From the sequence record MN445185.1: 64,000 nucleotides of DNA; one strand, written 5' to 3'. Positions within the stretch are counted from its first letter, which is position 1, and each line of letters opens with the position of its first letter. Positions 6,837 through 47,266 of this stretch are shown here, one piece after another. The stretch is from Escherichia phage vB_EcoM_EC001. The notes under the pieces are model-generated. The model was not told where the DNA came from and did no database searches. It saw nothing but the letters and a program-made list of their open reading frames with translations. A program made the translations under genes and the position numbers.

Positions 6837-7124
6837 AACAGAATTGGTTTGCTGCCTTAATGAAAGCTATCTGGCGCGCCCTTGTTTTTGCCGCAAGGAG
6901 AAAACGTAATGACCCACCGTCCAACTCCGCCTAAGTTCCCCGAAGTACAAACCGTTCCGGAAACGTATTACGATTCTGGGTTCTTCAAACTATTACGCGC
7001 GATTTTGTGTCGGAGAGTAAAGCCATGCAATACGACAACGACGACTGGCCGAAAGGCTTAATGCCCATTTTACTGGGATTAATGGTCCTCACGATGTTCG
7101 TGCGTTATATGACGTGAGGCCAGT

Positions 7125-38702: not shown

Positions 38703-38733
38703 GAGGTAGCCTACGGGCTACCTTCTTTTTTTG
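38703..38733 (+). terminator. Intrinsic terminator
   Basis: GGTAGCC-TACG-GGCTACC hairpin followed by TTCTTTTTTT. Confidence 0.65.
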
Positions 38734-39377: not shown

Positions 39378-39388
39378 CTCTCCTCTCT

Positions 39389-39421
39389 GGAACCCTTCGG
39401 GGTTCCATTTCTTCTTTTTTA
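39389..39421 (+). terminator. Intrinsic terminator
   Basis: GGAACCC-TTCG-GGGTTCC hairpin followed by ATTTCTTCTTTTTT. Confidence 0.7.
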
Positions 39422-39473: not shown

Positions 39474-41984
39474 ATGCTCAAGGTCGAACGTATCATTTTG
39501 AAAGGATTTACCGGCATGGGGTTACATGAAATCGAAACGTTTGATTTCACCCTCAAGTCCACCGTTACCATCATCCTCGGCGGTAACGGCTGCGGTAAAA
39601 CAAGCCTCCTATCTGTTTTTCTCCCCATAGCTCCAGCAAAATCTGAATTCCGTGAAGGTGGTTCTTACACTAACTACGCGTTAGTCGGGGACGACCGTCT
39701 TAAGTTTGAAGTCCTGCGTCGTGGGTCTTCTCTGTCTTGTAGTATCTTCAACATCACTAAAGGTGTTTCCGTCGTAGACTCGGTAAACGCCAAAGTTTAC
39801 AACTCCATGGTGGAGCAATTAACCGGAATCACCAAAGAAATCAAAGAGTTAATTAATGGTGAGACCTTATTAACTGACGCCACTACCGAAGTTCGTCGTA
39901 AATGGTTTACGTTAATGTCAGAATCTGATCTGACGTACGTTGTTGGTTGTTATCGTCGTCTGCGTAAACTCGCTTCCAGTTTAAGTGGGGCCATTGAGCA
40001 CACCGGCCGTAAAATCGGTGAGGCAAAAATGCGCGTGGTGGACGATGAAGAAGATCGTGCACGTTTGGAAGTTCGTTTGAAAGAACTGGACGTTGAGCTT
40101 CAGGAACTAAACCGCACCATTGAAGCGAGACCCGGTTTAGATAACGCCGTTTCGGTTGATAGTATCCGGAAACGCATTGCTTCGTTGCAACCGGCTGTAA
40201 AACTCATTATGGAGCGTTATGGTGTTCTGCCTTCTGACGAACTGATTAACGAGTTTCAAAGTCGTGTAGTTGCCTGGCGTGAGCAAGCTGCCTCTGCTGA
40301 AACTGAATGCAACATGTACAATAAAGAGTTGTCACAGCTACTGGATGAGGAGTCGCGTCAAGCGTATCTGATGCGCAACCATACCGGTCTAAAACAAACA
40401 ATCGACAGCTTAAAACAGGAACTGGCAACGTTCCAACAGAACTGGATGTTCCCGGCTCTGTTTGAAGGTACCCGCATCGATGTGGATAGCATTCAGAACG
40501 CGTTAAACGATGCCTGTAACTGGAATTTACCGTTGTCCATGCATCTGGACCAGTTAAAGACAACAGAGCGCCTGGGAGCGTTAGAGAAGCGTTTACAGGG
40601 TATGGATTTAACCTCTGCGGGTCTATCTGAAAAGCTGCAACGTTGTGAGAATGTGCTACACGGTTTATACCACGACCGTCAACACTTCTTAGAAACTGCA
40701 GAAGTTGATTGTCCACAGTGTAACCACCGTTTCCGTCCTGGGATTCGTAAGTCGTTACCTGAAATTGAAAAGGCCATCAACGATAATGAAGGTTGGAAGA
40801 AGCAGCTGAAAGACGAAATGGATAGTCTTTTGCGTGACCGCAAAGAGATTGAAGAGGACGTCCGTAGCTTACGTACGATTCGCGAAATCGTCATGTCGTA
40901 TTCCAATCATCCCGTTGTCGGTTTGTTTTTCCGTAAACTGCAGGAGCTGGATATCTTCACCACGGCGCGGGATCGTTACGGTGCCATTGCACGTGCCTTT
41001 ACTGAAGAGTTAGATTCGGCCATGATGTATCTGCGTCAATCGGCGAAGCTTGCAACAGCGGAACGGGAATGGCAAGAGGCTGTTGCCGCAGTAGGTAACG
41101 TTGATGGTGCGCTGAGCCAGAAAATTGAACATATCCGTTCACAACTGGATGGGGCTAACCGTCGACTGATAGAATACCGCAGACAAGCCAATGAGCTGGA
41201 ACGCGAAACCACCCAACTGCAACAAACCAAAGAAGCAATCGAACGTTTCCAAAAGGGCTACGAACATCTGGTATCGGAAATGAACATCTCCGTTAACAAC
41301 GTCGTGGTTCGCGAGTTGTTAAACCGACGCGAAGCGAAGCTCGATGCGTATACTTCCGCTCGTGAACGGTTTCGTCAAATGGAAGGGGCTATTGCACGTT
41401 TAGCGGAACTGGAAAAAGAGCAAGCTGAATTGCTTAAAGAGCATCACCATGCCAGATTGATTATCAATGCCGTCTCACCCGAAAAAGGATTATTGCGTCG
41501 TTACTTTTATGCTGCGATTACCCGCATCATGGATTTAATGAATCGGTATATCGAAATGGTGTGGGCATATCCGATGCAGGTTATTCCATGCGATCTAACC
41601 GACGGGGATTTGGATTATACTTTCCCGGTACGATTAAAAGACCATGAAGAACTGGTGCCGGATGTGAAGAAAGGTTCGAAGGCACAGCGTATTATCTTTA
41701 ACATGATGTTTCGTTTAACGGCGTATAAAGCGCTTGGTTTACAAAACTATCCTTTGTTATTGGATGAACCCTCTGAAGGCATGGATGAGGAACACAAAAA
41801 TCGACTGGTCAACTTCATTAAATCGTTGGCGTTGTCGGGAGAGTTTTCTCAATTGCTGGTCGTTTCGCATGAAGCGGAAGTTCATTCTAAACTTAACGAA
41901 GCCACCTACTGTGTCGTGGAGCCAGAAGGTGTAACGCTTCCACCGGTTTATAACGAAGGGGTAATAATCAAATATGCATCATAA
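39474..41984 (+). CDS. Rad50/SbcC-family ATPase with coiled coil and central CxxC zinc hook
   Basis: N-terminal Walker A GGNGCGKTS; central CPQC in the middle of a long coiled-coil-like region; C-terminal Walker B LLLDEPSEGMD and H-loop VVSHE. Confidence 0.8.
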   Translation: MLKVERIILKGFTGMGLHEIETFDFTLKSTVTIILGGNGCGKTSLLSVFLPIAPAKSEFREGGSYTNYALVGDDRLKFEVLRRGSSLSCSIFNITKGVSVVDSVNAKVYNSMVEQLTGITKEIKELINGETLLTDATTEVRRKWFTLMSESDLTYVVGCYRRLRKLASSLSGAIEHTGRKIGEAKMRVVDDEEDRARLEVRLKELDVELQELNRTIEARPGLDNAVSVDSIRKRIASLQPAVKLIMERYGVLPSDELINEFQSRVVAWREQAASAETECNMYNKELSQLLDEESRQAYLMRNHTGLKQTIDSLKQELATFQQNWMFPALFEGTRIDVDSIQNALNDACNWNLPLSMHLDQLKTTERLGALEKRLQGMDLTSAGLSEKLQRCENVLHGLYHDRQHFLETAEVDCPQCNHRFRPGIRKSLPEIEKAINDNEGWKKQLKDEMDSLLRDRKEIEEDVRSLRTIREIVMSYSNHPVVGLFFRKLQELDIFTTARDRYGAIARAFTEELDSAMMYLRQSAKLATAEREWQEAVAAVGNVDGALSQKIEHIRSQLDGANRRLIEYRRQANELERETTQLQQTKEAIERFQKGYEHLVSEMNISVNNVVVRELLNRREAKLDAYTSARERFRQMEGAIARLAELEKEQAELLKEHHHARLIINAVSPEKGLLRRYFYAAITRIMDLMNRYIEMVWAYPMQVIPCDLTDGDLDYTFPVRLKDHEELVPDVKKGSKAQRIIFNMMFRLTAYKALGLQNYPLLLDEPSEGMDEEHKNRLVNFIKSLALSGEFSQLLVVSHEAEVHSKLNEATYCVVEPEGVTLPPVYNEGVIIKYAS

Positions 41985-42165
41985 AGGTTGGCGCTTATGG
42001 GCTTGGTGGGGTTTTCAGTTCCTTCAGTTTGTTGTGATGGTACTGTACCTCTCCTTTTGTGCAACCGTAGTGGTTATCGCTGCGGTCGTTTATTTAGCTG
42101 CTGCTCTTAAAGAACGTCTGTTCGACACGCGTTGTGAGTGGCGAGATATAGGAGAACGGACATGA
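41974..42165 (+). CDS. Small hydrophobic membrane protein
   Basis: 63 aa; hydrophobic stretch FQFLQFVVMVLYLSFCATVVVIAAVVYLAAAL. Confidence 0.4.
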   Translation: MHHKGWRLWAWWGFQFLQFVVMVLYLSFCATVVVIAAVVYLAAALKERLFDTRCEWRDIGERT

Positions 42166-42266
42166 TTGAAGGTATCGTATTAACCGGTATTGCACTGTGG
42201 TTGATTCGTGGTGCCTGGGGTTGGATTATCCGCACGAAAGGATGGGCATTCCATGGCAAGACGTAA
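42162..42266 (+). CDS. Small hydrophobic peptide (34 aa)
   Basis: ATG preceded by GGAGAA; MIEGIVLTGIALWLIRGAWGWII...; below the ORF-track length cutoff, my own translation. Confidence 0.35.
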   Translation: MIEGIVLTGIALWLIRGAWGWIIRTKGWAFHGKT

Positions 42267-42444
42267 ACCTGGTCGTTTAAAGTTTTGGGCAGTTGTGGTA
42301 ATGCACACTGTGGTGCTACTCGGTATTTTCATGTCTCGCGCTACGCCTGCCTTTTGGGGCTTAGTTGTTTTGGTGTTCTTAGAAGGGGTTTACTTCGGTA
42401 ATCTGTGGAGCAAGCCCCCCGCGTTTAAGGGACCCGGCTTATGA
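42253..42444 (+). CDS. Small hydrophobic membrane protein
   Basis: Start at internal ATG (MARRKPGRLKFWAVVVMHTVVLLGIFM...); one or two TM-like segments. Confidence 0.4.
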   Translation: MARRKPGRLKFWAVVVMHTVVLLGIFMSRATPAFWGLVVLVFLEGVYFGNLWSKPPAFKGPGL

Positions 42445-42572
42445 CAGTCGTGAATAGTGTCAACGCAGCCATGATTGCAACAGGTGCGTATGATGGTGCC
42501 ACCTGGACAGACCTTGGCATTACGATTATCATCTGTGCAATCGGAGCATTTCTGGCATCATGGTTATTTTAG
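42441..42572 (+). CDS. Small hydrophobic peptide (43 aa)
   Basis: ATGA start/stop overlap with the previous gene; ...LGITIIICAIGAFLASWLF; my own translation. Confidence 0.35.
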   Translation: MTVVNSVNAAMIATGAYDGATWTDLGITIIICAIGAFLASWLF

Positions 42573-43110
42573 TGAAGTGGGTTGGGTGTATCATCTGTAG
42601 CCTGGTACTAGGAGCAGGCGCATACGCCCTAGGCGCAATCCTTGCATTGACGCAAGGTTGGTTTTAACAGGAGGGTAATTACGAAGTGGGAGAAGTATCA
42701 TGTAACAGTGAAACAGTCTCTGATCCCGTGGTCGTGGGTTCAGGGGCGGCCGTGCCAACCCGGCGTATCGTTCTTTCGAGCGCGGGGATGGCTATAGGGT
42801 CTTCAAAGAACCTTCTAGCAGACATCGCGGAAGTCTGCGGGCCGGATGATTTTGCAGTTTCACGTACAGTCGGGGAAGACTGGCGTGGTAATCAGAAGCG
42901 CCATGAGCGAATGTGGCGACGGAAGGTTACCTCAGCATCGCAGCGTTTTCAACGACGTTGTTGATCAAAGACACGGTTCCGATAGAGAACTGGTCTTTAC
43001 CTGCAGCGGTATACACCGCTTAAGTTTACCGGTAAACTTAAGAAAACACAAACGCAATTCTTCGTTACTCGCTTTCATCGCAGGTGAAAGCTCACTTAGG
43101 AATTCAGCTC

Positions 43111-43599
43111 ATGGCCGAAATTGTCATTCTTTCCTCATCCTCAGATTTAACGGAAGCACAAAATAAACAGCTGTTGGGGCTGCATTATAAATTTCTGAAC
43201 CACCAACGTACCATACTCCATATCGAAAAAGGTGAGATTCCGAACCTCACTCTGGAGAAACTGTTGGCGGGGAACCGTGCTTGTGTTGCTCTGGAAGGGG
43301 GTACCCCTGTTGGTTACTGTTTGTATCGCGTAATCGCTGGGGTTCTGAAGATTCGTACGATGTTCGTGTCTGAAATGGCACGCCGTCGTAAAACGATGAC
43401 GCAGATTTTTGATGCGCTTGATGTGAATGAACGGTTCACCAGTGCGCATGGGGGAATATACGCTTGCCAGGAAGCTGGTATTGCGTTCTTTACCGCTCGC
43501 GGTTTTGACAAGACCGTCTCTACAGACGGACAATGGCTTGAATTTAAGAAGCAGGTTCCTGCGGAAGCAGATGAACCTTTAAGGACTGCGGTAGCGTAG
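43111..43599 (+). CDS. Hypothetical protein, weakly GNAT-acetyltransferase-like
   Basis: Start at MAEIVILSS; C-terminal ...AGIAFFTARGFDKT resembles a GNAT motif B; the Q/RxxGxG motif A is not convincing. Confidence 0.3.
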   Translation: MAEIVILSSSSDLTEAQNKQLLGLHYKFLNHQRTILHIEKGEIPNLTLEKLLAGNRACVALEGGTPVGYCLYRVIAGVLKIRTMFVSEMARRRKTMTQIFDALDVNERFTSAHGGIYACQEAGIAFFTARGFDKTVSTDGQWLEFKKQVPAEADEPLRTAVA

Positions 43600-43670
43600 T
43601 CCTGTTTTAGCACTCCTTACGATTATGCCTCACTATGAGTGGGGTATTTTTTACGCGAGGAGTGCTATTT

Positions 43671-43880
43671 ATGTTTCACCGTCCTGGGTTTTCAGCTTTA
43701 AACACCGATGTCTGTTGGGCTGAGTACGAACGGGCGAAGGAGTTCTTACCCGTAAATCCAAAACACATCAACGTGGGTACTATCGGGCGTGTTGCGTTTG
43801 ATGATACTCCGCTGAGTACGTGTATTAAAGCAGCGCTTGGTACGCTGCCGGCGTCTATAGTTATTGAGGAATTAAAATGA
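43671..43880 (+). CDS. Hypothetical small protein
   Basis: ATG after RBS GAGGAG; stop overlaps the next start. Confidence 0.4.
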   Translation: MFHRPGFSALNTDVCWAEYERAKEFLPVNPKHINVGTIGRVAFDDTPLSTCIKAALGTLPASIVIEELK

Positions 43881-45635: not shown

Positions 45636-46358
45636 ATGTTTCGCACCATTTTATTTCTTCTGGTAGCAGTGACCACATTCAACAGCAACGCTTCTTACCA
45701 GTCCACCAGTAACAAACATCAAAAAGAATTTGTCCTTATCCAGGACCAGTTCAATGAGATTAAACCTCTCATCGTCTCTGCATCTCGAAAACAAGGCGTA
45801 CATGCCGGGATGCTTGCGACCACCATTTACCGCGAATCCCGTTTTAATAAAAACGTGGGTAAGAATAAATCGAGCAGTGCTAGTAGTGTTGTCCAAATGA
45901 CGACAGGTACTAAACGCTCCATGATACGTCTGTATGGGAAACAACTTAACATCCCAAAGAACGCAGACCTTAATAAACCGAAATATGCTGTACAGCTTGC
46001 TGCTGTTTACATGAAACACATCGAGGATCATCTGACAAAACAACTCAAACGCAAGCCGAGCACAGCCGAAATTGCATTAGGCTACCGCTTCGGTGAGAGC
46101 GCTGCTGTTGCGATGATTAAAAAGAAATCATCGGTCGGGAAACGCTGGATGGACAGCTACCGAAAAGACGCAGCATTCTACGGTGCGAAAATGACGCCAC
46201 CGAAAGCTGAAACACGTCAGCTTGCTTTTGCGAAGGAAGACCGCGACCAACGCGTCGCTGAGCTTCAGAAAATCTGGGATACGCTGTACACCAAAATATC
46301 ACCTGCGGCCGGTACACTACTGGCAAATAACACTATCATGAAAGGAGCATTGCTTTGA
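45636..46358 (+). CDS. Secreted lytic-transglycosylase-like (SLT domain) protein
   Basis: Signal peptide MFRTILFLLVAVTTFNSNA; YRESRFN...SSSASSVVQMTTGT fits the SLT pattern ES....S.A.GLMQ..T. Confidence 0.45.
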   Translation: MFRTILFLLVAVTTFNSNASYQSTSNKHQKEFVLIQDQFNEIKPLIVSASRKQGVHAGMLATTIYRESRFNKNVGKNKSSSASSVVQMTTGTKRSMIRLYGKQLNIPKNADLNKPKYAVQLAAVYMKHIEDHLTKQLKRKPSTAEIALGYRFGESAAVAMIKKKSSVGKRWMDSYRKDAAFYGAKMTPPKAETRQLAFAKEDRDQRVAELQKIWDTLYTKISPAAGTLLANNTIMKGALL

Positions 46359-46953: not shown

Positions 46954-46988
46954 GGTCAGACCTTCGGGTCTGACCACCTTTTATTTAA
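46954..46988 (+). terminator. Intrinsic terminator
   Basis: GGTCAGACC-TTCG-GGTCTGACC hairpin followed by TTTTATTT. Confidence 0.65.
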
Positions 46989-46999
46989 TTCTTGGATGT

Positions 47000-47266
47000 G
47001 TGTTCGTGAAACGTTTAATAAATTTTCTCTACTGGATGGAGAAACGCTATAGCCACAACATTCCGATGATGTATAGTTTGTTATTCTCCACGGTAATGTT
47101 GGTAATCGGTGCGATAGTCGCGCATTTGATGGAACTCACCACTCCATGGGCGCAGCTTTTTCTCACCATCTGGATGTTGTTCTCAGGCTACCACATACGT
47201 GGTTTCATAACCCGATTCTTTCGCTGGCGTAGTACCTGGCATGTCTTTAATTCCGACCGTAACTAG
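47000..47266 (+). CDS. Small membrane protein (two predicted TM helices)
   Basis: 88 aa; LLFSTVMLVIGAIVAHLM and LFLTIWMLFSGY hydrophobic segments. Confidence 0.45.
   Translation: MFVKRLINFLYWMEKRYSHNIPMMYSLLFSTVMLVIGAIVAHLMELTTPWAQLFLTIWMLFSGYHIRGFITRFFRWRSTWHVFNSDRN

What the first reader, a model, noticed from the sequence alone, without database searches (positions are those of the whole stretch)
41974..42668. Cluster of five overlapping genes for very small hydrophobic peptides
Directly after the Rad50-like gene, five short ORFs with mostly overlapping stop/start codons encode 31-63 aa peptides dominated by one or two hydrophobic helices (the last, GTG 42573..42668, VKWVGCIICSLVLGAGAYALGAILALTQGWF). 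Such clusters of membrane micro-proteins in phages are poorly characterised; they may modulate host membrane proteins or lysis timing.
Basis: seen in the sequence. Interest (0 to 1): 0.4.

Follow-up and report, generated by a model that had tools for sequence, protein, structure and literature searches.

The report
Conserved membrane micro-protein genes after sbcC
Five tiny overlapping genes just after the SbcC/Rad50-like gene of this SPN3US-type giant Salmonella phage are real, evolutionarily conserved genes for very small membrane proteins, but their job is still unknown and the cluster is only modestly unusual.

Summary
The window is an SPN3US-like jumbo phage (Seoulvirus). At 41974-42667 (+), five overlapping ORFs of 63, 34, 63, 43 and 35 aa follow the essential sbcC gene (SPN3US gp186). 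Each carries one or two hydrophobic helices.

They are real genes, not chance ORFs. All five frames survive at about 69% DNA identity in phage SPAsTU. dN/dS is 0.07-0.43, and substitutions pile up at third codon positions. Five such ORFs in 0.7 kb is about 25 times the window's background rate.

The two smallest genes (o2, o5) are unannotated in the SPN3US reference, yet they are the best conserved across four genera. o3 and o4 come and go between lineages.

None matches a family of known function in Pfam, NCBIfam or PHROGs. Relatives are found only in the SPN3US-like clade.

The genes lie inside a terminator-bounded sbcC-to-acetyltransferase unit with overlapping stops and starts. This suggests co-translation and a small complex in the inner membrane.

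Function is unresolved. I lean weakly towards control of membrane permeability and lysis timing for the signal-peptide transglycosylase 3 kb downstream. Host-membrane modulation and an SbcCD tether are the rivals. The gp187 membrane helix was already noted in 2016. Interest is modest.

The parts
39474..41984 (+). sbcC / SMC-Rad50-like gene (836 aa), orthologue of the essential SPN3US gp186. It is the first gene of the unit.
   Evidence: ORF. Annotated in relatives as SMC domain protein or SbcC-like subunit. Its essentiality is reported in PMC5105663.
41974..42165 (+). o1 = SPN3US gp187 (63 aa). It has a short basic N-terminus, a hydrophobic stretch of about 38 residues with a central conserved Y-x-x-F-C, and a charged C-terminal tail with a C-E-W-R motif.
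   Evidence: phrog_16515 at E 3e-29. dN/dS 0.10-0.31 and a third-position excess of substitutions. AF2 single-sequence model gives one long helix 4-62, pLDDT 87. Only 3 relatives were found among 1.84 billion representative proteins.
42162..42266 (+). o2 (34 aa), unannotated in the SPN3US reference. One hydrophobic helix is followed by a basic tail, W-x-W-I-I-R/K-x-K-G-W-A-F.
   Evidence: ATGA overlap and AGGAG ribosome-binding site. phrog_13448. dN/dS 0.07-0.12 against SPAsTU and pEa29. HMM hits in Machina, pEa8 and Wellington at E 1e-8 to 3e-6. Annotated in SEGD1, SPAsTU, 1252, SPFM13 and MET_P1.
42253..42444 (+). o3 = SPN3US gp188 (63 aa here, 67 aa in relatives). It has a basic N-terminus (MARRKPGRLK), two helices, a conserved membrane Glu (F-L-E-G-x-Y-F-G) and a cytoplasmic tail. 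In this window the tail is frameshifted.
   Evidence: phrog_18173. dN/dS 0.2-0.3. AF2 gives helices 6-28 and 32-53, pLDDT 68. The gene is absent from pEa_SNUABM_29 and from a lineage of about 225-kb metagenomic genomes.
42415..42420 (+). C6 homopolymer inside o3. Eight close relatives have C5. The extra C replaces the conserved tail R-L-R-D-P-A-Y-D-S-R-E with A-F-K-G-P-G-L and turns the 17-nt o3/o4 overlap into an ATGA overlap.
   Evidence: together with the 204-nt o3 CDS. It could be a sequencing error or a natural variant.
42441..42572 (+). o4 = SPN3US gp189 (43 aa). A conserved polar N-terminus (M-T-x-V/I-N-x-x-N) with no basic residue is followed by a C-terminal helix ending W-L-F.
   Evidence: phrog_29196. 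dN/dS 0.08-0.11. Present in Seoulvirus and the 225-kb lineage; absent from Erskinevirus, Machinavirus and Wellingtonvirus.
42560..42667 (+). o5 (35 aa), unannotated in the SPN3US reference. It is almost entirely hydrophobic, with the invariant C-terminus G-A-x-x-A-L-T-Q-G-W-F.
   Evidence: No PHROG match. dN/dS 0.20-0.43 against pEa29 and SPAsTU. HMM hits in Wellington at E 2e-12, pEa8 at 1e-4 and Machina at 8e-3. Annotated in SPAsTU and Lh1B.
42686..42964 (+). Sixth conserved small gene (92 aa, not a transmembrane protein). It has a semi-hydrophobic patch, an acidic stretch and a very basic tail (E-D-W-R-G-N-Q-x-R-H-E-R...R-R-C). It occurs in every lineage that has o5 and in none that lacks it.
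   Evidence: phrog_15402. pN/pS 0.4-0.8. Annotated in SPFM13, Machina gp201, pEa8 and Wellington gp213.
43084..43599 (+). GNAT acetyltransferase, the last gene of the unit. The likely start is the ATG at 43111.
   Evidence: phrog_3810 and Pfam Acetyltransf_1. Synteny is kept in all relatives.
39388..39407 (+). GC-rich hairpin with a T-run between the upstream gene and sbcC. It is the likely terminator of the preceding unit.
43625..43647 (+). Hairpin with a T-run just after the acetyltransferase, the likely end of the sbcC-to-GNAT unit. No comparably strong terminator lies between 39474 and 43599.

Best explanation
These are five real, co-transcribed and probably translationally coupled genes: SPN3US gp187, a new 34-aa gene, gp188, gp189 and a new 35-aa gene. 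They encode inner-membrane micro-proteins with about seven membrane helices in all and only short cytoplasmic tails.

Shown:
- The frames are protein-coding and under purifying selection.
- They are hydrophobic.
- They sit inside a terminator-bounded sbcC-to-GNAT unit with overlapping stops and starts.
- The module is specific to the SPN3US-like clade. o1, o2 and one of o4/o5 are always present; o3 is dispensable.

Inferred:
- The proteins are made together and assemble into a small hetero-oligomeric complex in the host cytoplasmic membrane.
- The complex acts on the membrane itself. My preferred reading is a holin/antiholin-like set. o1 and o3 have the size of class II holins or pinholins (63-67 aa, charged C-terminal tail); two helices are predicted for o3, while for o1 they are only inferred. 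The set would set the time at which the membrane is depolarised, activating the Sec-exported SLT transglycosylase encoded 3.2 kb downstream.

Confidence that this is a real membrane micro-protein module is about 0.9. Confidence in the lysis-timing function is about 0.25-0.3, and the confidence figure given for this explanation refers to that function.
For: Coding and conservation:
- All five CDS are annotated in SPAsTU, which is 68.8% identical in DNA.
- Orthologues were traced in Seoulvirus, Erskinevirus, Machinavirus, Wellingtonvirus and metagenomic genomes.
- dN/dS is 0.07-0.43, with an excess of third-position substitutions.
- HMMs confirm o2 and o5 across genera.

Membrane character:
- Hydropathy.
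- The strong T-over-A skew typical of hydrophobic coding.
- AF2 helices.

Operon and coupling:
- Overlaps of 11, 4, 14, 4 and 13 nt, and tight or overlapping junctions in most relatives.
- Terminator-like hairpins only at 39388-39407 and 43625-43647.

Leaning towards lysis:
- o3 is predicted as two helices with a basic N-terminus and a charged tail. o1 has a 38-residue hydrophobic run and a charged tail.
- The clade has no detectable homologue of the phiKZ holin gp142 or its regulator gp143 (PMC12894885), so its holin is unassigned.
- The nearby SLT enzyme has a signal peptide conserved in Asesino and Machina. By established knowledge of secreted and SAR endolysins, such an enzyme needs only a small membrane-depolarising holin.
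- No other small transmembrane protein is conserved next to that SLT gene in Asesino.
Against: - No sequence or profile match to any holin, antiholin or spanin family.
- The genes are not adjacent to the SLT gene: about 3.2 kb and seven genes lie between them.
- They are co-transcribed with a DNA-metabolism gene, so their timing may not be late. No transcriptome or accessible proteome time course was found.
- o3, one of the two holin-like proteins, is missing in two lineages and frameshifted in this window.
- The best-conserved members, o2 and o5, are single tiny helices, not holin-like.
- AF2 models o1 as one continuous helix rather than a hairpin.
- In this phage an 88-aa two-helix ORF lies closer to the SLT gene.
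- It is not shown that the SLT protein is the endolysin.
Confidence: 0.28

Rival explanations
1. The cluster is an accessory host-interface module. The micro-proteins bind and modulate host inner-membrane proteins (transporters, sensor kinases, proteases, the divisome), or they block DNA entry by a second phage (superinfection exclusion, as T4 Imm and Sp do). They have no role in lysis.
For: - Distribution is restricted to one lineage: only 3 relatives of o1 among 1.84 billion representatives, 6 hits for o3, and none in bacterial genomes for o5.
- Gene content is variable, with o3 and o4 gained or lost.
- The window tolerates a frameshift in o3.
- A different set of small transmembrane ORFs occupies the same position in Derbicusvirus.

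All of these are typical of fast-evolving accessory genes. From general knowledge, exclusion and host modulation are, next to lysis, the commonest known roles of small phage membrane proteins.
Against: - No homology to any known exclusion or regulator protein.
- o2 and o5 are strongly constrained (dN/dS down to 0.07; an invariant ALTQGWF end) across phages of Salmonella and Erwinia. This argues for a conserved target or partner, not an arms-race interface.
- Nothing computed here points to a particular host target.
Confidence: 0.25
2. The cluster is a membrane tether or regulator of the SbcCD nuclease. o1 (gp187), possibly with the others, holds or regulates gp186/gp27 at the inner membrane. 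Miller et al. suggested this role for T4 gp47.1 with gp46/gp47, and Thomas et al. 2016 raised it for gp187.
For: - o1 overlaps the sbcC stop codon by 11 nt, so the two are probably translated in tandem.
- A small transmembrane ORF directly follows sbcC in every relative down to 47% SbcC identity, including non-homologous ones in Derbicusvirus.
- The idea is already in the literature (PMC5105663).
Against: - SPN3US and Asesino form a phage nucleus in which DNA replication takes place (review PMC13282480). An integral membrane anchor would keep SbcC away from phage DNA.
- SbcD (gp27) is encoded far away.
- More distant nucleus-forming phages have no such ORF directly after sbcC: Goslar, RAY and Miami; in phiKZ the small transmembrane ORFs begin about 850 nt downstream.
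- One anchor would not need four or five proteins.
- The T4 precedent is itself only a suggestion.
Confidence: 0.1
3. The ORFs are not real genes. They are chance open frames in a T-rich spacer, or the region works as RNA or regulatory DNA.
For: - Several genome records annotate none or only some of them (JN03, Proteus phage 7, SPLA1a).
- o5 has no obvious Shine-Dalgarno sequence at optimal spacing.
Against: - Frames, lengths and order are kept at 69% DNA identity and across genera.
- dN/dS is well below 1 and substitutions concentrate at third positions.
- The density of hydrophobic ORFs is far above background.
- There is no Rfam match and there are no repeats.
- pEa29 has lost o3 by a clean deletion of about 154 bases that leaves its neighbours intact.
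Confidence: 0.02

Closest known systems
SPN3US gp187, gp188 and gp189, and PHROGs 16515, 13448, 18173 and 29196 (all 'unknown function')
   Same: Direct orthologues at 90-100% amino-acid identity, in the same position after gp186.
   Different: The reference genome omits o2 and o5. In this window o3 has a frameshifted tail.
T4 gp47.1, a 46-aa predicted membrane protein encoded next to the gp46/gp47 Rad50-Mre11 genes
   Same: A tiny transmembrane protein encoded directly beside the phage Rad50/SbcC-type nuclease genes. Thomas et al. 2016 drew the parallel for gp187.
   Different: - No sequence relation was shown.
- Here there are five proteins rather than one.
- sbcD is not nearby.
- The phage replicates its DNA in a protein-walled nucleus.
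- The T4 function is itself unproven.
Class II holins and pinholins (for example phage 21 S21-68), with their antiholins
   Same: Size of 63-67 aa. Two hydrophobic helices are predicted for o3 and inferred for o1, probably N-in/C-in. Both have a charged cytoplasmic C-terminal tail. The same gene block contains an exported muralytic enzyme. The comparison itself rests on my knowledge of holin classes.
   Different: - No family match.
- Not adjacent to the lysin gene.
- No dual-start motif.
- o3 is dispensable in some lineages.
- No functional data.
phiKZ lysis cassette gp141, gp141.1, gp142, gp143 and gp144 (Manohar et al. 2026, PMC12894885)
   Same: It is the lysis system of a related nucleus-forming jumbo phage, and its endolysin is also a transglycosylase.
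   Different: - The phiKZ holin is a class III protein with one helix and a large cytoplasmic domain plus a soluble regulator. Neither has a detectable homologue outside Pseudomonas phages.
- The phiKZ cassette is contiguous and is not next to sbcC.
T4 Imm and Sp, and other small inner-membrane superinfection-exclusion proteins; bacterial small membrane regulators such as MgrB, AcrZ and KdpF (from my own knowledge)
   Same: Peptides of 30-100 aa that are little more than one or two membrane helices and work by binding larger membrane proteins.
   Different: There is no sequence similarity, and no target is known. The comparison is by kind only.

Membership tests
Protein-coding genes (as against chance ORFs) | The reading frame is kept in diverged relatives, with purifying selection and third-position bias. 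| tested here: met
PHROG families 16515, 13448, 18173 and 29196 | A significant profile match. | tested here: met
   o1 to o4 match at E 6e-9 to 8e-33. o5 matches no PHROG.
Holins (any curated family) | A sequence or profile match to a Pfam, NCBIfam or PHROG holin family. | tested here: not met
   no match.
Class II holin / pinholin | Two transmembrane helices (N-in, C-in) and a charged cytoplasmic C-terminal tail in a protein of about 60-100 aa. | tested here: inconclusive
   o3: two helices in the AF2 model and in hydropathy, with a charged tail in relatives. o1: a 38-residue hydrophobic run and a charged tail, but AF2 gives a single helix.
Class II holin / pinholin | Encoded in a lysis cassette next to the endolysin. 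| tested here: not met
   The SLT gene starts 3.0-3.2 kb downstream (45636), with seven genes between.
Class II holin / pinholin | Timed lethality that can be triggered by energy poisons; complementation of holin-null phage. | not testable with these tools
   Needs experiments of the kind done for phiKZ gp142 (PMC12894885).
phiKZ-type class III holin (gp142) with regulator (gp143) | Homology to gp142 or gp143. | tested here: not met
   tblastn hits occur only in Pseudomonas phages.
Spanins | A periplasmic coiled-coil domain (i-spanin), or a lipobox lipoprotein (o-spanin). | tested here: not met
   There is no extramembrane domain longer than about 24 residues. The Cys in o5 (W-V-G-C) is not conserved in orthologues.
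T4 gp47.1-like nuclease-associated membrane protein | A small transmembrane protein encoded directly beside the Rad50/SbcC-type gene. | tested here: met
   o1 overlaps sbcC by 11 nt. The arrangement is kept in all relatives down to 47% SbcC identity.
T4 gp47.1-like nuclease-associated membrane protein | Sequence homology to gp47.1, and physical association with the nuclease. | not tested
   No T4 sequence was compared. An interaction cannot be tested here.
o4 and o5 as paralogues of one family | Profile-profile similarity. | tested here: not met
   hhalign probability 1.4%. They share only a C-terminal helix that ends in W-(L)-F.

The most novel reading that the evidence does not exclude
The micro-proteins form a dedicated inner-membrane platform, translationally coupled to SbcC. 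It keeps part of the essential SbcC(D) nuclease outside the phage nucleus at the cell membrane, for example to destroy host DNA or to process DNA at the early infection vesicle. That would be a membrane-bound arm of DNA metabolism in a nucleus-forming phage.
Probability: 0.08. Interest if true: 0.65.

Novelty: new member of a known kind. Interest (0 to 1): 0.3.

Why it matters
Small membrane proteins are the least understood and most often missed class of phage genes. Here the two best-conserved members are absent from the reference annotation.

If the cluster proved to be the missing holin/antiholin set of the SPN3US-like nucleus-forming phages, it would complete their lysis pathway. It would also show a solution unlike the one just described for phiKZ.

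If instead it tethers SbcCD or targets a host membrane protein, it would give an entry point into jumbo-phage host takeover.

As it stands, the finding is a well-supported annotation improvement plus a testable lead, not a discovery of a new kind of system.

Tried and rejected
- **Chance ORFs or RNA element:** rejected by dN/dS, codon-position bias, a density test, Rfam and a repeat search.
- **Known families:** Pfam, NCBIfam and PHROGs gave nothing with a function.
- **Wider homologues:**
  - The word-indexed search for o3 gave 6 hits, all Seoulvirus.
  - The exhaustive HMMER search for o1 gave 3 hits.
  - tblastn with o2 and o5 found only the clade.
  - Pattern scans of bacterial genomes with o5 found none, and of IMG/VR with o2 only the same lineages.
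- **o4/o5 paralogy:** not supported.
- **Homology of the Derbicusvirus, phiKZ, Goslar, RAY and Miami ORFs downstream of sbcC to o1-o5:** none by HMM. Their PHROGs are uninformative.
- **A phiKZ-like lysis cassette in this clade:** not detectable.
- **Lipoprotein or spanin reading of o5:** the Cys is not conserved.
- **Foreign origin:** GC content is ordinary.
- **Expression data:** the SPN3US infection proteome paper (J Virol 2019) is not held, and no transcriptome was found.
- **Structure prediction:** AF2 on single peptides gave only helices and cannot decide topology. No fold search was run, because it would be meaningless for such models.


Full report
**What the window is.** The region around the finding is 95-99% identical to some thirty Salmonella phages of the genus Seoulvirus, type SPN3US, with genomes of about 240 kb. 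More distant DNA matches are SPAsTU and STsAS at 68.8%, and Erwinia phage pEa_SNUABM_29. In SPN3US the upstream gene is gp186, an SbcC/SMC-like protein shown to be essential (PMC5105663). SPN3US and its relative Asesino are listed as experimentally shown nucleus-forming phages (PMC13282480).

**The observation.** Five + strand ORFs tile 41974-42667.

| ORF | Coordinates | Length | Junction with the previous gene |
|---|---|---|---|
| o1 | 41974-42165 | 63 aa | 11-nt overlap with sbcC |
| o2 | 42162-42266 | 34 aa | ATGA overlap, AGGAG upstream |
| o3 | 42253-42444 | 63 aa | 14-nt overlap |
| o4 | 42441-42572 | 43 aa | ATGA overlap |
| o5 | 42560-42667 | 35 aa | 13-nt overlap |

Orthologue N-termini favour the ATG at 42560 over the GTG at 42572.
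- Every peptide has a membrane-length hydrophobic stretch.
- In the whole 64-kb window only seven small hydrophobic ORFs lie outside large genes, and five of them are here.
- The expectation for 695 nt of one strand is 0.21 (P about 3e-6), and no shuffle of 2000 reached five.
- The strong T-over-A skew with ordinary GC content fits hydrophobic coding and gives no sign of foreign DNA.
- No Rfam family and no repeats are present.

**Are they genes?** Yes.
- SPAsTU has all five annotated, in the same order and with similar lengths.
- Translations align throughout.
- Nei-Gojobori dN/dS against SPAsTU or pEa29 is 0.24-0.31 for o1, 0.07-0.12 for o2, 0.22 for o3, 0.08 for o4 and 0.20-0.43 for o5.
- In the non-overlapping parts, substitutions concentrate at third codon positions and are rarest at second positions.
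- pEa29 has lost o3 by a clean deletion that leaves its neighbours intact.

**Annotation is erratic.** The number of the five genes annotated ranges from none (JN03, Proteus phage 7) to five (SPAsTU). In the SPN3US reference, o1 is gp187, o3 is gp188 and o4 is gp189. o2 and o5 are not annotated.

**How far the module extends.** I followed the C-terminal part of SbcC through the phage collection, IMG/VR and metagenomes and read the DNA downstream.

| Lineage | o1 | o2 | o3 | o4 | o5 | orf92 |
|---|---|---|---|---|---|---|
| Seoulvirus | yes | yes | yes | yes | yes | yes |
| pEa_SNUABM_29 | yes | yes | no | yes | yes | yes |
| Erskinevirus (Asesino, phiEaH2) | yes | yes | yes | no | yes | yes |
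| Metagenomic genomes of about 225 kb | yes | in most | no | yes | no | no |
| Machinavirus, pEa8, Wellingtonvirus | positional | yes | positional | no | yes | yes |

- In the last row, "positional" means an ORF sits at the equivalent place, but its sequence similarity to the Seoulvirus gene is only marginal.
- HMMs built from the nearer lineages confirm o2 (E 1e-8 to 3e-6) and o5 (E 2e-12 to 8e-3) in Machinavirus, pEa8 and Wellingtonvirus. For o1 and o3 the positional equivalents are only the top marginal hits (E 0.009-0.07).
- Derbicusvirus (SbcC 47-50% identical) has other small transmembrane ORFs at the same place with no detectable similarity. phiKZ, Goslar, RAY and Miami have nothing comparable directly after sbcC.
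- o1, o2 and at least one of o4/o5 are therefore the constant part of the module.
- o4 and o5 share only a terminal helix ending W-(L)-F and are not detectably related.
- Beyond this clade there is nothing:
  - 3 hits for o1 among 1.84 billion representative proteins.
  - 6 hits for o3.
  - None for o5 in bacterial genomes.

**Anatomy of the proteins** (read from the sequence).
- **o1:** a short basic N-terminus, then 36-40 hydrophobic residues with a central conserved Y-x-x-F-C/G, then a charged tail with a C-E-W-R motif. The hydrophobic length suggests a hairpin, but AF2 without an alignment draws one helix.
- **o2:** one helix with a conserved Arg or Lys near its end, then the basic motif K-G-W-A-F.
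- **o3:** a strongly basic N-terminus, two helices separated by S-R-A-T-P (AF2 helices 6-28 and 32-53), a conserved Glu or Asp in helix 2, and the tail P-P-x-L-R-D-P-A-Y-D-x-R-E.
- **o4:** a conserved polar N-terminus with no basic residue, and a C-terminal helix.
- **o5:** nearly all hydrophobic, with the invariant end A-L-T-Q-G-W-F.
- None has an extramembrane domain longer than about 24 residues. This excludes spanin-like or receptor-like roles.

**Context.**
- Hairpin-plus-T-run terminators lie at 39388-39407, before sbcC, and at 43625-43647, after the GNAT acetyltransferase. No comparably strong terminator lies between them.
- The unit therefore reads sbcC, o1 to o5, a sixth conserved small gene (42686-42964, 92 aa, with a basic tail) and GNAT.
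- The overlapping junctions are kept in most relatives. By established knowledge of translational coupling, this points to co-production. Assembly into one complex is my inference.
- Downstream on the same strand are proteins of unknown function, a macro-domain protein, and an SLT transglycosylase at 45636-46358.
- That transglycosylase has an N-terminal signal peptide with an A-x-A-type site, conserved in Asesino and Machina.

**What it does.** Nothing computed here fixes the function. I weigh three readings.

1. **Lysis timing (about 0.25-0.3).**
   - For:
     - o1 and o3 resemble class II holins or pinholins in size and charged tail. o3 also has two predicted helices.
     - The holin and regulator recently established for phiKZ (PMC12894885) have no detectable homologue in this clade.
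     - The likely endolysin is Sec-exported, so membrane depolarisation alone would be enough to activate it.
     - Asesino has no other small transmembrane gene near its SLT gene.
   - Against:
     - There is no family match.
     - The genes are 3 kb from the lysin gene.
     - They are co-transcribed with a DNA-metabolism gene.
     - o3 is dispensable.
     - In this phage an 88-aa two-helix ORF lies nearer the SLT gene.
2. **Host-membrane modulation or superinfection exclusion (about 0.25).** This is favoured by the narrow distribution, the variable gene content and the replacement by unrelated transmembrane ORFs in Derbicusvirus. No specific evidence supports it.
3. **SbcCD tether (about 0.1).** This idea was already raised for gp187 by analogy with T4 gp47.1. 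The conserved overlap with sbcC favours it. The nucleus-forming life style and the distant sbcD gene disfavour it.

**Novelty and score.** The genes are known as hypothetical proteins, and four of them are in PHROGs. The gp187 transmembrane helix and its position were discussed in 2016. Three things are new here:
- evidence that all five frames are under selection;
- the finding that the two unannotated ones are the conserved core;
- a description of how the module varies between lineages.

This is a new member of a familiar kind, small phage membrane proteins of unknown role. It is worth a targeted experiment but is not surprising to a specialist. Interest is 0.3.

Noticed in passing
window 42415-42420: A run of six C inside o3, where eight close relatives have five. 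The +1 frameshift replaces the conserved C-terminal tail RLRDPAYDSRE with AFKGPGL. Only the low-quality Lh1B record shows the same reading. It may be a homopolymer sequencing error or a natural variant.
   Followed up: partly
window 42686-42964 (+): A 92-aa ORF with a very basic conserved tail (EDWRGNQ.RHER...RRC) is conserved across four genera and falls in phrog_15402. It is present exactly where o5 is present. The SPN3US reference does not annotate it and instead calls a 40-aa ORF in another frame (gp190), which is probably a mis-call.
   Followed up: partly
window 45636-46358 (+): The SLT-domain transglycosylase has an N-terminal signal peptide (MFRTILFLLVAVTTFNSNA|SYQ) that is conserved in Asesino gp218 and Machina gp208. 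This makes it a candidate Sec-exported endolysin. The distant Klebsiella phage Miami also has a signal-peptide SLT gene just after sbcC, so the sbcC-SLT linkage may be old.
   Followed up: partly
window 47000-47266 (+): An 88-aa two-helix ORF about 650 nt after the SLT gene, with a weak sub-threshold DUF4231 match (E 5e-4). It matches no PHROG, and there is no counterpart near the SLT gene of Asesino. It is an alternative holin candidate for this phage.
   Followed up: partly
window 38703-38724, 39388-39407, 43625-43647, 46954-46975 (+): Strong GC-rich hairpins with TTCG- or TACG-type loops and T-runs lie between gene blocks. Terminator-like sites number 22, against 10 expected from shuffles. 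They appear to delimit transcription units.
   Followed up: no
window 43635-43880 (+): The longest ORF starts inside the terminator hairpin. The PHROG alignment begins at residue 13, so the real start is probably the ATG at 43671.
   Followed up: no
GenBank LR535901, LR535903-LR535908, LR535911-LR535913 and LR535917 (SPFM phages); proteins P0003 and P0004: These records match the region in 14-28 short pieces and yield chimeric 'proteins' made of shuffled o3 segments. The assemblies look scrambled here.
   Followed up: no
L009 3562-3948 (Erwinia phage Wellington gp208): A 128-aa protein with an HExxH motif (HEAVHAAW) is inserted between o1 and o2, together with extra transmembrane ORFs of 46 and about 101-116 aa.
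   Followed up: no
L014 4218-5577 (phiKZ gp166.1, gp167, gp168): About 850-1550 nt downstream of phiKZ sbcC (gp165) lie three proteins, each with a hydrophobic helix: gp166.1 N-terminal, and gp167 and gp168 C-terminal. They are not similar to o1-o5.
   Followed up: no
window 7007-7117 (+): This is the only other very small (36 aa) hydrophobic ORF in an intergenic gap of the window.
   Followed up: no
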